DNA from: an uncultured Bacilli bacterium
GTDB taxonomy: Bacteria; Bacillota_I; Bacilli_A; RF39; UBA660
Length of the DNA: 64,000 nt
NCBI GenBank assembly: GCA_934168205.1
Contig: CAKPMX010000001.1
Span: 510,603-574,602, forward strand
Direction: 5' to 3'
The number at the start of each line of letters is the position of its first letter. Within the stretch, counting starts at the first letter, position 1. Shown one piece after another: positions 36,959 through 37,942 of the stretch. A program made the translations under genes and the position numbers. Below the pieces are notes generated by a model. The model was not told the origin of the DNA. It was given only the letters and a program-made list of their open reading frames with translations, and made no database searches.

Positions 36959-37300
36959 ATGCTAAATTTAGAATATCTACAACAATCGTTGATAATCGCT
37001 ATAGCTTTAAGTACAATAACATGTGCTTTTATTCAAAAAACAAAATGTTGTTTCAATAGTAGCAAGTACTTAGCTTTATATTCGCTACTTGTTAATATAT
37101 TTGTTGGTATAGTATTTTGTATGACTTTTACGAGTATTGATTTCCCTAATAGTTTATGGATTGGAATGTTTTCCTTCCTTGGCGCTGACACCATATATAA
37201 AACACTTGAAGGTAAAGTGTCATCATATTCAGATATAACCAATAAAAAAGGTTTATATATATCAAAAGATAATTTAATTAATAAGGAGGAGGGAATATAA
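36959..37300 (+). CDS. small three-TM membrane protein, holin-like
   Basis: 113 aa; three hydrophobic helices with a charged C-terminal tail; the stop abuts the start of the downstream peptidase gene. Confidence 0.4.
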   Translation: MLNLEYLQQSLIIAIALSTITCAFIQKTKCCFNSSKYLALYSLLVNIFVGIVFCMTFTSIDFPNSLWIGMFSFLGADTIYKTLEGKVSSYSDITNKKGLYISKDNLINKEEGI

Positions 37301-37942
37301 ATGGAAAAACCTCTATATCCTTGCAAAAACATGAGGATAACGCAAGGATATAACGAAGGAACGCACTTGGATAGCTTTGCAATAGATGATGCCGGTAAAG
37401 ATACAAGTATAAGCAAAATACGTGCTCCTTATACAGGTATAATTAAGAAAATATATAAAGATGATGCCAATGAAGTCTGGTTAGAAAGTATAGATAAAGT
37501 GGAATACCCTGATGGAACAAAAGATTATTTAACAATGATGTTTGCTCATTCAAATGATGTAAGTAATTTATTTGTAGGAAAAAAAATAGCCCAAAACGAA
37601 GAATTCTATAGCGAAGGCACAAAAGGAAATGCAACTGGTAACCATTGTCACTTTGAATGTGGTAAAGGAAAATTCACAGGTACTGGTTGGCACAAAAATT
37701 CATCTGGATATTATTCCATAAATAATGGTAAAAAACCCGAAGAATGTCTCTGGTTAGATAAAGAAGTAAACGTAATAAATAACTACAAGTACAATTTCAA
37801 AAGTATCACAGAAGAAAAGCCTGTCGTACCGGTTACAAAAGATGAAAAAGAAGATACAACAGAAGAACCAATATTCATTTGCCCAAAAAGTGATTTATAT
37901 GGTATCTACCTGAAAGCAGGTCAAAAATTATATCTAAAATAA
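37301..37942 (+). CDS. M23/LytM-family metallopeptidase-like protein (no signal peptide)
   Basis: 213 aa; GNATGNHCHFECG matches the M23 G-x-TG-x-HLHFE zinc-ligand motif; upstream GTHLDSFAIDDAG resembles the first His/Asp motif; no cell-wall-binding domain. Confidence 0.5.
   Translation: MEKPLYPCKNMRITQGYNEGTHLDSFAIDDAGKDTSISKIRAPYTGIIKKIYKDDANEVWLESIDKVEYPDGTKDYLTMMFAHSNDVSNLFVGKKIAQNEEFYSEGTKGNATGNHCHFECGKGKFTGTGWHKNSSGYYSINNGKKPEECLWLDKEVNVINNYKYNFKSITEEKPVVPVTKDEKEDTTEEPIFICPKSDLYGIYLKAGQKLYLK

What the first reader, a model, noticed from the sequence alone, without database searches (positions are those of the whole stretch)
36959..37942. Holin-like membrane protein plus signal-less M23 peptidase break the rplM-rpsI-cwlD synteny
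A 113-aa three-TM protein is directly followed by a 213-aa M23/LytM-type metallopeptidase with an HxH zinc motif (GNATGNHCHFE) and neither a signal peptide nor a wall-binding domain. This resembles a lysis cassette, or a holin-dependent secretion pair for a lysostaphin-like bacteriolysin/bacteriocin. It lies between a ribosomal operon terminator and a bidirectional terminator shared with zupT.
Basis: partly seen in the sequence, partly recalled or inferred. Interest (0 to 1): 0.55.

Follow-up and report, generated by a model that had tools for sequence, protein, structure and literature searches.

The report
Domesticated phage holin–endolysin pair
A two-gene cell-bursting module of phage origin (a membrane hole-former plus a zinc enzyme that cuts the cell wall) has become a permanent, strongly conserved chromosomal gene pair in an uncultured group of gut bacteria (order RF39), probably for self-controlled lysis such as releasing spores.

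Summary
The ORFs at 36959-37300 (113 aa, three predicted helices) and 37301-37942 (213 aa) abut. They have their own Shine-Dalgarno sites and lie between two terminator hairpins.

The small protein belongs to the Listeria phage A118 Hol118-type holin family. Closer homologues sit in the holin slot of phage lysis cassettes.

The 213-aa protein is an M23/LytM metallopeptidase of the phi29 gp13 type. All zinc and catalytic residues are invariant, and it has no signal peptide or wall-binding domain. Its nearest paralogues (54-63% identity) are prophage endolysins of the same bacterial lineage.

It is not a recent insertion. In 20 of 23 related species-level genomes of uncultured gut Bacilli (the one traceable to GTDB is order RF39) the order rplM-rpsI-holin-M23-zupT-essC is kept, at 54-99% M23 identity. 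dN/dS is 0.04-0.09 for both genes. No phage genes, cargo gene or immunity gene lie nearby.

Best reading: an anciently domesticated lysis cassette used for host-controlled cleavage of the cell wall. An invariant CATAnnnT(A/G) box in front of the holin resembles sigma-K/sigma-E promoters. The window also carries spo0A, a spoIID-like and a cwlD-like gene. Mother-cell lysis is therefore my favoured role, but it is unproven. The bacteriocin reading is not supported.

The parts
36884..36911 (+). Intrinsic terminator of the rplM-rpsI operon (10-bp stem, 4-nt loop, T tract).
   Evidence: Terminator scan. Folding gives dG -10.7 kcal/mol, z -3.45. An equivalent hairpin plus T tract precedes the holin promoter in related loci, including some where other genes have been inserted after rpsI.
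36912..36941 (+). Putative promoter of the pair: GTGTC (36912-36916), 16 nt, then CATATAATA (36933-36941). It can be read as sigma-K/sigma-E-like (xC-N16-CATAnnnTA) or as a sigma-A promoter with a perfect -10 (TATAAT, 36935-36940) and a poor -35.
   Evidence: The CATA[T/A/C][A/T][A/T]T[A/G] box is present in all 21 sequences at a fixed distance from the Shine-Dalgarno site. A GTrnC element lies 16 nt upstream in most of them (my reading of the sequences printed). The pattern CATAnnnTA-N6-RGGAGG occurs once in the window against 0 expected. CA precedes TATAAT in only 11 of 210 cases in the window. Function as a promoter is inferred, not shown.
36947..36953 (+). Shine-Dalgarno site (GAGGAGG) of the holin gene, 5 nt before the ATG.
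   Evidence: Read from the sequence; conserved in all related loci.
36959..37300 (+). Holin-like gene: 113 aa, three helices, N-terminus outside and C-terminus inside, with a charged C-terminal tail. It is Hol118-type (class I topology).
   Evidence: phrog_1299 (holin) E=7e-8 over nearly the full length. PF06946 matches 29 of 44 family members, best E=1.4e-5. hhalign against Listeria phage A118 Hol118 gives 88% probability, E=3e-6. Homologues at 32-41% identity lie directly upstream of endolysin genes in IMG/VR phage contigs. Hydropathy and charge distribution. AlphaFold helices 4-29, 35-57 and 64-83. dN/dS 0.06-0.08.
37285..37293 (+). Shine-Dalgarno site (GGAGGAGGG) of the peptidase gene, lying inside the 3' end of the holin gene. 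The holin stop and the peptidase start abut, which suggests translational coupling.
   Evidence: Read from the sequence.
37301..37810 (+). Catalytic domain of the M23/LytM metallopeptidase (residues 1-170), phi29 gp13 type. Zinc and catalytic residues are H22 (37364-66), D29 (37385-87), H83 (37547-49), H115 (37643-45) and H117 (37649-51).
   Evidence: AlphaFold pLDDT is above 90 across residues 1-170. Best Foldseek match is 3csq (phi29 gp13 C-terminal domain), E=1e-11, rmsd 1.7 A over 170 columns, followed by lysostaphin, LytM and EnpA. phmmer against 3csq gives E=7e-6, with H-x6-D and HxH aligned. These residues are invariant in 55 homologues. phrog_9066 (endolysin) E=1.5e-11.
37811..37867 (+). 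Acidic, Pro-rich linker (about residues 171-189). Its length and sequence vary among orthologues.
   Evidence: pLDDT below 50 for residues 173-189. Orthologue lengths range from 210 to 271 aa and the variation falls here.
37868..37942 (+). Conserved C-terminal tail (residues 190-213, IFICPKSDLYGIYLKAGQKLYLK) plus the stop codon. The same module ends many phage endolysins of this host group. Its role is unknown; an oligomerisation hairpin is one possibility.
   Evidence: K196, L199, Y200, G201, Y203 and L204 are invariant. The same tail ends the prophage endolysins of L021 and L022, the phage endolysins of L031 and L032, and the canonical-M23 endolysin of L026. It also ends P0310 and P0353.
37942..37969 (.). 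Bidirectional terminator hairpin, flanked by an A run and a T run, shared by the peptidase gene (+) and zupT (-).
   Evidence: Folding gives dG -11.4 kcal/mol (+ strand, z -7.3) and -11.6 kcal/mol (- strand, z -5.2). The consensus scan missed it because it has fewer than 3 G-C pairs.

Best explanation
This is a phage lysis cassette that was captured long ago and is now a vertically inherited core gene pair of an uncultured gut Bacilli lineage (GTDB order RF39, near family CAG-611).

How it most likely works:
- The two genes form one short operon with its own promoter, between two terminators.
- The 113-aa protein is a class-I, Hol118-type holin. It accumulates in the cytoplasmic membrane and opens it.
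- The 213-aa enzyme has no export signal and waits in the cytoplasm. It is a phi29-gp13-type M23 zinc endopeptidase.
- Once released through the holin lesion, it cuts the peptide cross-links of the wall. The likely bond is D-Ala-mDAP, because RF39 is predicted to have mDAP-type peptidoglycan.
- The outcome is lysis, or local wall opening, controlled by the host cell.

The specific role I favour is terminal lysis of the sporulating mother cell to free the spore. In this lineage the ancestral lyt/cwl autolysins are reported lost.

Shown here: the gene structure, family and fold assignments, phage ancestry, conserved synteny and purifying selection.

Inferred: the promoter, hole formation, the bond cleaved and the timing of expression.

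My confidence is about 0.75 that this is a domesticated holin-endolysin pair for host-controlled wall cleavage, and about 0.35 that its role is specifically mother-cell lysis.
For: Holin identity:
- phrog_1299 E=7e-8.
- PF06946 hit in 29 of 44 members.
- hhalign against Hol118: 88% probability.
- Homologues sit between tail-fibre and endolysin genes in phage contigs L026, L027, L029 and L030.
- Three helices, acidic N-terminus, K-rich first loop and charged C-terminal tail.

Endolysin identity:
- Fold match to gp13 (3csq), E=1e-11, rmsd 1.7 A.
- Invariant H22, D29, H83, H115 and H117, plus the gp13-like Q15.
- The catalytic domain is 54-63% identical to prophage endolysins. One of these (L022) is in the same genome, Mycoplasma sp. 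CAG:877, as a chromosomal copy of the pair (L008).
- The phage versions carry an SH3-like domain and a coiled coil, and end in the same tail.

Domestication:
- rplM-rpsI-holin-M23-zupT(-)-essC is kept in 20 of 23 species-level genomes at 54-99% M23 identity.
- dN/dS is 0.06-0.08 for the holin and 0.04-0.09 for the M23 gene, compared with 0.04-0.13 for zupT.
- At 50% clustering the chromosomal short form is essentially one cluster among 1380 representatives of this domain.
- Base composition is not anomalous.
- The window lies on a 559-kb contig.

Own expression unit:
- Terminators on both sides.
- The promoter box stays attached to the holin gene even where unrelated genes have been inserted after rpsI.

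Sporulation link:
- The invariant CATAnnnT(A/G) box, with AC 16 nt upstream in L004 and L006-L011, matches the B. subtilis sigma-K consensus AC-N16/17-CATAnnnTA. The consensus is from my own knowledge.
- Boxes of the same kind close to the start codon precede the cwlD-like and spoIID-like genes. The spoIID-like gene has GTATATT-N15-CATACTAT, which is sigma-E-like. Most other genes in the window lack the box; the ecfA-like gene at 32333 is the one exception outside this cluster.
- Spo0A is in the window (283 bits against a cut-off of 200).
- RF39 is predicted to form spores and to have mDAP peptidoglycan, and its ancestor is predicted to have lost most lyt/cwl endopeptidases (PMC10868615).
- gp13 cleaves D-Ala-Dpm (PMC9662197).
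Against: - No activity, expression or phenotype data exist. The lineage is uncultured.
- Both Pfam assignments fall below gathering thresholds for the window proteins, and NCBIfam has no model for either.
- The promoter box also contains a perfect sigma-A -10 (TATAAT), so vegetative expression is equally compatible. The window's own -35 position reads TC, not AC.
- The CATA-box argument rests on a handful of genes in one 64-kb window: about 2 are expected by chance and 7 are seen. It also includes zupT, essC and ecfA, which are not classical sporulation genes.
- The holin is unusually well conserved for a holin (69% mean column identity, with invariant polar residues in the helices). This could indicate a more specific, non-lytic channel.
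- There is no dual-start or antiholin feature that would give timing control.
Confidence: 0.6

Rival explanations
1. Vegetative, non-lytic export of a housekeeping autolysin. The holin-like protein acts as a dedicated small channel that passes the signal-less M23 endopeptidase to the wall. The enzyme then serves growth, wall turnover or daughter-cell separation, replacing the Sec-dependent Lyt/Cwl hydrolases lost in this reduced-genome lineage. This would be a type-10-secretion-like system whose only cargo is the hydrolase itself.
For: - Perfect TATAAT -10 and strong Shine-Dalgarno sites.
- Core-gene conservation and strong purifying selection.
- Very high conservation of the holin, including polar residues within the membrane helices, which fits a specific channel better than a crude lesion.
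- Reported loss of lyt/cwl endopeptidases in the ancestor (PMC10868615).
- Non-lytic holin-dependent export is documented (PMC9527704).
Against: - The -35 element is poor: the first base is never T in any of the 21 sequences, and there is no TG extension.
- The invariant CA before TATAAT is not expected for sigma-A.
- The closest relatives of both proteins are bona fide phage lysis proteins.
- Constitutive holin expression is normally toxic.
- No regulator or antiholin is present.
Confidence: 0.2
2. Wall-remodelling helper of the neighbouring type VII secretion ATPase (EssC). The pair would open the peptidoglycan locally so that the secretion machine or its substrates can cross the wall. This would be analogous to the EssH hydrolase of Staphylococcus aureus (own knowledge).
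For: - An essC-like gene (FHA plus FtsK domains) lies downstream of the pair in the window and in the 10 of 20 syntenic loci whose contigs reach it (L011, L012, L014-L019 and others). In L015 it follows directly, 125 nt downstream on the same strand.
- essC at 40688-45262 is followed by a YukD/EsaB-like ORF and small helical ORFs.
Against: - The linkage cannot be separated from the general conservation of gene order around rpsI.
- In most genomes zupT on the opposite strand and a terminator lie between the pair and essC.
- The pair has its own promoter and terminator.
- Known type VII helper hydrolases are Sec-exported and have no holin.
- The M23 protein has no WXG or LXG targeting domain.
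Confidence: 0.07
3. Bacteriolysin or bacteriocin. The M23 enzyme is released through the holin, or by lysis of a subpopulation, to kill competing bacteria. This would resemble lysostaphin, zoocin A or enterolysin A, or the prophage-lysin bacteriocins LysL and LysP of Lactococcus.
For: - M23 catalytic domain with intact active site.
- No signal peptide, so holin- or lysis-dependent release is needed.
- Phage-lysin-like bacteriocins exist (PMC11370637 and PMC10377672).
Against: - No Sec signal or pro-region and no SH3b-type targeting domain.
- No FemABX-like or other immunity gene among the neighbours, which are rpsI, zupT, a 252-aa unknown and cwlD.
- Distribution is core and syntenic, not patchy or on mobile elements.
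- The closest fold is a D-Ala-mDAP endopeptidase. Such an enzyme would attack the producer's own predicted mDAP wall.
Confidence: 0.05
4. Inert prophage remnant with no host function.
For: Both genes are of phage type.
Against: - dN/dS 0.04-0.09.
- Intact in every one of 20 syntenic genomes across deep divergence (dS saturated).
- Conserved promoter box and Shine-Dalgarno sites.
- No other phage genes nearby.
Confidence: 0.02

Closest known systems
Phage lysis cassettes of Firmicutes phages: the Hol118 holin with Ply118 of Listeria phage A118, and the holin-endolysin pairs of prophages of the same RF39-like hosts (L021, L022, L026, L031, L032)
   Same: - Gene order: holin, then a signal-less endolysin, with abutting or overlapping reading frames.
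- A three-helix holin with a charged C-terminal tail.
- The same gp13-like M23 catalytic domain (54-63% identity).
- The same C-terminal tail module.
   Different: - Not in a phage or prophage: fixed beside rpsI in the core chromosome across the lineage.
- The endolysin has lost the SH3-like wall-binding domain and the coiled coil.
- It has its own conserved promoter with a CATA-type -10 box.
- Both genes evolve as slowly as housekeeping genes.
phi29 gp13 (PDB 3csq), C-terminal M23 D,D-endopeptidase domain
   Same: - Best structural and sequence match.
- H-x6-D spacing and the HxH motif.
- Gln in place of the oxyanion-stabilising Arg or Tyr.
- Acts on mDAP-type peptidoglycan.
   Different: gp13 is a tail-tip, virion-associated enzyme fused to a lysozyme domain and used for entry. 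Here the domain stands alone with a short tail and is paired with a holin, so it acts from inside the cell.
Type 10 secretion systems and holin-dependent secretion: Serratia ChiW/ChiX, Salmonella TtsA, Yersinia Tc-toxin release, and C. difficile TcdE (with TcdL, own knowledge)
   Same: A phage-derived holin plus peptidoglycan hydrolase kept on the chromosome for a host function, outside any prophage.
   Different: - No cargo gene (toxin or chitinase) in or beside the operon.
- The hydrolase is an M23 endopeptidase, not a muramidase or an L-Ala-D-Glu peptidase.
- It is a core gene of a commensal lineage, not a feature of a virulence island.
Mother-cell lysis hydrolases of Bacillus subtilis (CwlC and CwlH, sigma-K regulon; own knowledge)
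   Same: Signal-less wall hydrolases made in the mother cell that destroy its wall at the end of sporulation. The promoter box here resembles sigma-K/sigma-E promoters.
   Different: CwlC and CwlH are amidases without a holin partner and are not homologous to this pair. Sporulation-specific expression of this pair has not been shown.
M23 bacteriolysins (lysostaphin, zoocin A, enterolysin A)
   Same: M23 fold and zinc site.
   Different: Those enzymes are Sec-exported pre-pro-enzymes with a targeting domain and a linked immunity gene, and are often on plasmids. None of these features is present here.

Membership tests
Peptidase family M23 (LytM type; Pfam PF01551) | LytM/M23 beta-sheet fold | tested here: met
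   AlphaFold model with pLDDT above 90 for residues 1-170. Foldseek matches 3csq (E=1e-11, rmsd 1.7 A), lysostaphin, LytM, EnpA and ShyA, all at probability 1.00.
Peptidase family M23 (LytM type; Pfam PF01551) | Zinc ligands H(x)nD and the second His of HxH, plus the two catalytic His residues | tested here: met
   H22-x6-D29, H83 and H115-x-H117 align with gp13 and are invariant in 55 homologues.
Peptidase family M23 (LytM type; Pfam PF01551) | Score above the Pfam gathering threshold | tested here: not met
   16.4 bits against a cut-off of 28.7. 48 of 55 family members hit the model only weakly, best E=3.5e-4. This is a divergent gp13-like subgroup.
Peptidase family M23 (LytM type; Pfam PF01551) | Peptidoglycan endopeptidase activity and the bond cleaved | not testable with these tools
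   D-Ala-mDAP cleavage is inferred from the similarity to gp13 (PMC9662197) and from the predicted mDAP wall of RF39 (PMC10868615).
Holin, Hol118 type (Pfam PF06946; class I topology) | Small membrane protein with three transmembrane helices, N-terminus outside, C-terminus inside, and a charged C-terminal tail | tested here: met
   Hydropathy and charge distribution. AlphaFold helices 4-29, 35-57 and 64-83.
Holin, Hol118 type (Pfam PF06946; class I topology) | Sequence relationship to characterised holins | tested here: met
   phrog_1299 E=7e-8. hhalign against Hol118 gives 88% probability, E=3e-6. PF06946 matches 29 of 44 members, best E=1.4e-5. The window protein itself is below the Pfam cut-off (14.3 bits against 22.4).
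Holin, Hol118 type (Pfam PF06946; class I topology) | Gene located directly upstream of an endolysin gene | tested here: met
   The reading frames abut in the window. Homologues occupy the same slot in phage contigs.
Holin, Hol118 type (Pfam PF06946; class I topology) | Timed hole formation or lethality; dual-start or antiholin control | not testable with these tools
   No dual-start motif is visible (the N-terminus reads MLNLEY...). Membrane permeabilisation needs an experiment.
Prophage or prophage remnant | Neighbouring phage structural, integration or regulatory genes; patchy distribution; atypical composition | tested here: not met
   The neighbours are truA, rplM, rpsI, zupT, cwlD and essC. 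Only the two genes of the pair hit PHROGs. GC content is typical. Synteny is conserved in 20 of 23 genomes.
Type 10 secretion system (holin/peptidoglycan-hydrolase-dependent protein secretion) | Holin plus wall hydrolase outside a prophage | tested here: met
Type 10 secretion system (holin/peptidoglycan-hydrolase-dependent protein secretion) | Linked signal-less cargo protein (toxin or chitinase) | tested here: not met
   No candidate cargo lies in the operon or beside it.
Class III bacteriocin / M23 bacteriolysin | Secretion signal or pro-peptide, targeting domain, linked immunity gene | tested here: not met
   None is present. Distribution is core, not accessory.
Sporulation mother-cell regulon (sigma-E / sigma-K) | Promoter matching kmATATT-N14/15-CATACAnT or AC-N16/17-CATAnnnTA, in a spore-forming organism | tested here: inconclusive
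   The CATAnnnT(A/G) box is invariant in 21 sequences, with AC-N16 in about a third of them (my reading). Spo0A, a spoIID-like and a cwlD-like gene are in the window. The same box also reads as a sigma-A TATAAT. The consensus sequences are from my own knowledge.

The most novel reading that the evidence does not exclude
A phage lysis cassette has been wired into the sporulation programme of an entire bacterial order. In RF39, which lost the classical Lyt/Cwl autolysins during genome reduction, a sigma-K/sigma-E-driven holin plus a wall-binding-domain-less M23 endolysin would be the dedicated machine that opens the mother cell and releases the spore. This would be the first case of a domesticated holin-endolysin pair serving as a core developmental lysis system. 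The short C-terminal tail would replace the lost wall-binding domain, for example by foldon-like oligomerisation.
Probability: 0.3. Interest if true: 0.65.

Novelty: new variant of a known kind. Interest (0 to 1): 0.45.

Why it matters
RF39 is a widespread, uncultured, genome-reduced order of gut Bacilli whose cell biology is known only from gene inventories. Those inventories report that the usual autolysins are missing (PMC10868615).

A phage-derived holin-endolysin pair that is kept in one chromosomal position and is under housekeeping-level selection offers a concrete candidate for how these bacteria lyse or open their wall. This matters for spore release and for transmission between hosts.

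It also extends the list of domesticated lysis cassettes. The known examples serve virulence by exporting toxins or chitinases. This one would be a core function of a commensal.

The pair carries no name in the protein sources searched and matches no NCBIfam model, so it is presumably annotated as hypothetical in thousands of metagenome-assembled genomes. The enzyme is small, has a single domain and can be tested in heterologous hosts.

Tried and rejected
- NCBIfam and PADLOC gave no hit for either protein. The pair belongs to no named bacterial family and no known defence system.
- Rfam, searched at permissive E-values over 34500-41000, found no RNA element. The only hit was a sub-threshold Alpha_RBS match inside the zupT start region.
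- tblastn of the holin against 50,697 GenBank phage genomes found nothing. Relatives appeared only in IMG/VR metagenomic phage contigs.
- The weak Pfam hits of the holin to BioY and Xan_ur_permease were judged to be compositional similarity between membrane helices. They are short, below threshold and cover only part of much larger transporters.
- The prophage-remnant idea is rejected on synteny and selection.
- The bacteriocin idea is rejected because it lacks a signal peptide, a targeting domain and an immunity gene.
- A link to type VII secretion could not be separated from the general conservation of gene order.
- SpoIIQ, a LytM-domain sporulation protein that appears in the fold hits (3tuf), was considered and rejected. 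The window protein has no membrane anchor, and its closest relatives are phage endolysins.
- No dual-start or antiholin arrangement was found.
- The literature searches found no description of this gene pair and no cultured RF39 isolate.
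Full report
**1. The observation**

The ORFs at 36959-37300 (113 aa) and 37301-37942 (213 aa) are present as described. The stop codon of the first (TAA, 37298-37300) is followed directly by the ATG of the second. Each has a strong Shine-Dalgarno sequence: GAGGAGG at 36947-36953 and GGAGGAGGG at 37285-37293.

Upstream lies the rpsI terminator, 36884-36907 plus a T tract (dG -10.7 kcal/mol). Downstream, at 37942-37969, is a hairpin flanked by an A run and a T run. It folds equally well on both strands (-11.4 and -11.6 kcal/mol, z -7.3 and -5.2) and is shared with the convergent zupT gene (ZIP family). 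Base composition is unremarkable.

**2. The small protein is a holin of the Hol118 type**

- Pfam alone is weak: PF06946 E=0.056, below the cut-off.
- PHROGs gives phrog_1299 'holin' at E=7e-8 over nearly the full length.
- 29 of 44 family members hit PF06946, best E=1.4e-5.
- A profile of the family aligns with Listeria phage A118 Hol118 at 88% probability, E=3e-6.
- Hydropathy, charge distribution and an AlphaFold model agree on the topology. There are three helices (4-29, 35-57, 64-83), an acidic N-terminus, a K-rich first loop and a charged C-terminal tail.

The strongest evidence is positional. In metagenomic phage contigs, homologues sharing the QKTK and GADT(I/L)YKT motifs (32-41% identity) lie between tail-fibre genes and an endolysin gene (L026, L027, L029, L030).

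The family is unusually well conserved for a holin: 69% mean column identity, with invariant polar residues inside the helices.

**3. The 213-aa protein is a gp13-type M23 endopeptidase**

- PF01551 is below threshold (16.4 bits against 28.7).
- phmmer finds the C-terminal domain of phi29 gp13 (3csq, E=7e-6), with the H-x6-D and HxH motifs aligned.
- The AlphaFold model is confident for residues 1-170 (pLDDT above 90).
- Its best PDB match is 3csq (E=1e-11, rmsd 1.7 A over 170 columns). Lysostaphin, LytM, EnpA, ShyA and others follow at rmsd 3-5 A.
- Viral structure matches are phi29-like 'morphogenesis proteins' and M23 lysins.
- H22, D29, H83, H115 and H117, and the gp13-like Q15, are invariant in 55 homologues.

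gp13 is a D,D-endopeptidase that cuts D-Ala-Dpm (PMC9662197).

There is no N-terminal hydrophobic segment. After the catalytic domain come a variable acidic linker (low confidence, residues 173-189) and a conserved 24-residue tail.

**4. Phage ancestry**

The nearest paralogues are endolysins in prophage or phage contexts of the same host group.

- L021 and L022 encode tail-fibre-like genes, a different 127-aa holin, and then a 333-354-aa endolysin. Its first ~185 residues are 60-63% identical to the window protein.
- L022 and the chromosomal copy L008 come from the same genome, Mycoplasma sp. CAG:877.
- IMG/VR contigs L031 and L032 show the same arrangement.
- These phage enzymes carry an SH3-like domain and a coiled coil, and end in the same tail motif as the window protein (for example LIFESPKLDFYAIKLLEKDKLYLGK).
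- The canonical-M23 endolysin that follows the window-type holin in L026 also ends in this tail.

The chromosomal pair is therefore assembled from modules that circulate in phages of this host. It has lost the wall-binding part but kept the tail.

In GenBank phages, the catalytic domain matches an endolysin of a [Clostridium] innocuum phage, a gut microvirus protein, and tail lysins of Enterococcus and Bacillus phages at 32-37% identity.

A scan of every protein in 1.84 billion representatives found 1380 proteins with this domain. Most are longer endolysin-like or very large virion proteins. The chromosomal short form collapses essentially into one 50% cluster.

**5. It is not an insertion but a core feature of the lineage**

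Of 23 species-representative genomes that encode a relative, 20 keep the order rplM-rpsI-holin-M23. Of those 20, 19 also keep zupT on the opposite strand, and essC follows wherever the contig extends far enough. M23 identity ranges from 54 to 99% and rplM identity from 76 to 100%. The other three loci are the prophage copies.

dN/dS against six orthologues:

| Gene | dN/dS |
|---|---|
| holin | 0.06-0.08 |
| M23 peptidase | 0.04-0.09 |
| zupT | 0.04-0.13 |
| rplM | 0.03-0.10 |

The window sequence lies on a 559-kb metagenomic contig.

The genomes are uncultured gut 'Bacilli', including Mycoplasma sp. CAG:877. GTDB genus CAG-877 (Candidatus Faecimonas) belongs to order RF39, family CAG-611 (PMC8035907).

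**6. Expression signals**

In all 21 sequences a box CATA[T/A/C][A/T][A/T]T[A/G] sits 5-6 nt upstream of the Shine-Dalgarno site. In the window it is CATATAATA at 36933-36941. In most sequences an element GTrnC lies exactly 16 nt further upstream, directly after a terminator T tract (my reading of the sequences).

The box stays with the holin gene even where unrelated accessory genes have been inserted between rpsI and the holin. These include an S66-like carboxypeptidase, NUDIX, GNAT and XRE genes and an IS200-like fragment, in L004 and L014-L017. The pair therefore has its own promoter.

The box contains a perfect sigma-A -10 (TATAAT). It also matches the B. subtilis sigma-K consensus AC-N16/17-CATAnnnTA. 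The full match, including AC, is present in L004 and L006-L011, and L004 reads CATACAAT, the sigma-E -10 consensus. These consensus sequences are from my own knowledge.

Arguments for the sporulation-type reading:
- The CA preceding TATAAT is invariant, although CA precedes TATAAT in only 11 of 210 cases in the window.
- The first base of the -35 hexamer is never T.
- Within the window, CATA-type boxes close to the start codon are found at the cwlD-like and spoIID-like genes. The spoIID-like gene has GTATATT-N15-CATACTAT, a near-consensus sigma-E promoter.
- Such boxes also occur at zupT, essC, a PLC-like gene and the ecfA-like gene at 32333. Glycolytic, ribosomal and other housekeeping genes show TAWAAT without CA.

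This is suggestive, not decisive. About two such boxes are expected by chance among 63 genes, and seven are seen.

**7. Biological setting**

The window encodes Spo0A (283 bits against a cut-off of 200), a SpoIID/LytB-domain protein and a CwlD-like amidase.

A comparative study predicts the following for RF39 (PMC10868615):
- mDAP-type peptidoglycan;
- capability to form spores, with spoIIGA, spoIIM, spoIIP and spoIIQ present;
- descent from an ancestor that lost most PBPs and lyt/cwl endopeptidases.

A gp13-like D-Ala-mDAP endopeptidase fits such a wall. A captured lysis cassette would fill the gap left by the lost autolysins.

**8. Mechanism proposed**

*Shown:* a two-gene unit, a holin family member, an M23 enzyme with an intact active site and no export signal, phage ancestry, vertical inheritance and purifying selection.

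*Inferred:* transcription from the conserved box; accumulation of the holin in the membrane and permeabilisation; escape of the cytoplasmic enzyme; cleavage of peptide cross-links; and lysis. I consider terminal mother-cell lysis for spore release the most likely use (about 0.35).

*Rivals:*
- Vegetative, non-lytic export of a housekeeping autolysin (about 0.2). Non-lytic holin export is documented (PMC9527704).
- Help for the adjacent type VII secretion ATPase (about 0.07).
- A bacteriocin (about 0.05).
- An inert remnant (about 0.02).

**9. Comparison with known systems**

The pair works like a phage lysis cassette, and both proteins meet the structural and positional criteria of their families. 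It is not a prophage.

It resembles type 10 secretion systems and the C. difficile TcdE holin (with TcdL, own knowledge) in being a domesticated holin-hydrolase pair. It lacks their defining cargo gene, and it uses an M23 endopeptidase rather than a muramidase or an L-Ala-D-Glu peptidase.

It lacks every defining accessory feature of M23 bacteriolysins.

I found no description of this pair in the literature searched. No source in the protein collection gives either protein a functional name; the only names recorded are 'hypothetical protein'. NCBIfam has no model for either.

**10. Verdict**

I rate it a new variant of a known kind: a core-genome, cargo-less, M23-based domesticated lysis cassette in an uncultured order. 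It is of moderate interest, and the main open question, the timing and purpose of expression, can be tested directly.

Noticed in passing
window 535-5172 and 40688-45262 (with 5420-6755 and 45272-45947): Two EssC-like genes (FHA plus FtsK/SpoIIIE domains, 1545 and 1524 aa) flank the ribosomal-protein superoperon. The first is followed by four ORFs of about 100 aa with no Pfam hit. The second is followed by an 85-aa YukD/EsaB-like ORF and two helical ORFs of about 70 aa. These may be type VII secretion substrates or accessory proteins.
   Followed up: partly
window 37868-37939; L021 6001-7002; L022 6001-7065; L026 5350-6333; L031 4001-5002; L032 4001-4975; P0310; P0353: A C-terminal tail of about 22 residues (pattern F/Y-x-C/S-x-K-x-D/G-x-Y-x-I/L-x-L-K-x-G-x-x-L-Y-L/I) ends many endolysins of phages of this host group. 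It occurs whatever the catalytic domain and usually follows a coiled coil. It looks similar to the T4 fibritin foldon (RDGQAYVRKDGEWVLL, from memory), so it may be an oligomerisation hairpin. The chromosomal enzyme kept this tail while losing the SH3-like domain and the coiled coil.
   Followed up: partly
window 46031-48177 (- strand): A Zn-dependent phospholipase-C-like gene (47153-48124) and a SpoIID/LytB-like gene (46031-47107) lie in tandem. AC-N16-CATATTATA lies at 48151-48177. A near-consensus sigma-E-like GTATATT-N15-CATACTAT lies at about 47112-47141, directly before the spoIID-like start codon.
   Followed up: partly
window 37970-38812 (- strand): The zinc importer gene zupT is convergent with the zinc-dependent peptidase gene in 19 of the 20 syntenic genomes. 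It has its own AC-N16-CATACTTTA box at 38786-38812. Whether this linkage is functional (zinc supply) or only syntenic is unknown.
   Followed up: no
window 12323-13114: A Spo0A orthologue (TIGR02875, 283 bits against a cut-off of 200) in an RF39-like genome. This supports published predictions that this uncultured order can sporulate.
   Followed up: partly
window 53608-54000: A 130-aa ORF matches only the N-terminal ~60 residues of CwlD-type amidases. It may be a truncated paralogue or pseudogene of the cwlD-like gene at 39892-40572.
   Followed up: no
L004 2785-3586; L014 3389-5663; L015 1362-3191; L016 4765-5662; L017 2821-3956: The short spacer between the rpsI terminator and the holin promoter is an insertion hot spot in relatives. 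The inserted genes are an S66 LD-carboxypeptidase-like gene, NUDIX, GNAT and XRE-family genes, and an IS200-like fragment. The pair and its promoter box remain intact downstream in each case.
   Followed up: yes
window 34725-35866 and 38957-39715: Three conserved ORFs of unknown function (260, 118 and 252 aa) are embedded in the same syntenic block. The first two lie between truA and rplM, and the third between zupT and cwlD. None has a hit in Pfam, PHROGs, NCBIfam or PADLOC. All are conserved in most related loci at 36-98% identity.
   Followed up: partly
window 48265-49227 and 59556-63930: An Abi_2 (abortive-infection-like) gene, and a DNA methyltransferase plus restriction-endonuclease pair, lie in the accessory part of the window.
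   Followed up: no
H1/H2: NC_040350.1 2478-3002 (Alces alces faeces associated microvirus): The best GenBank phage match to the catalytic domain (36.6% identity, E=2e-22) is a hypothetical protein of a 5.5-kb gut microvirus. This suggests that small ssDNA phages of these hosts also carry the gp13-like M23 domain.
   Followed up: no
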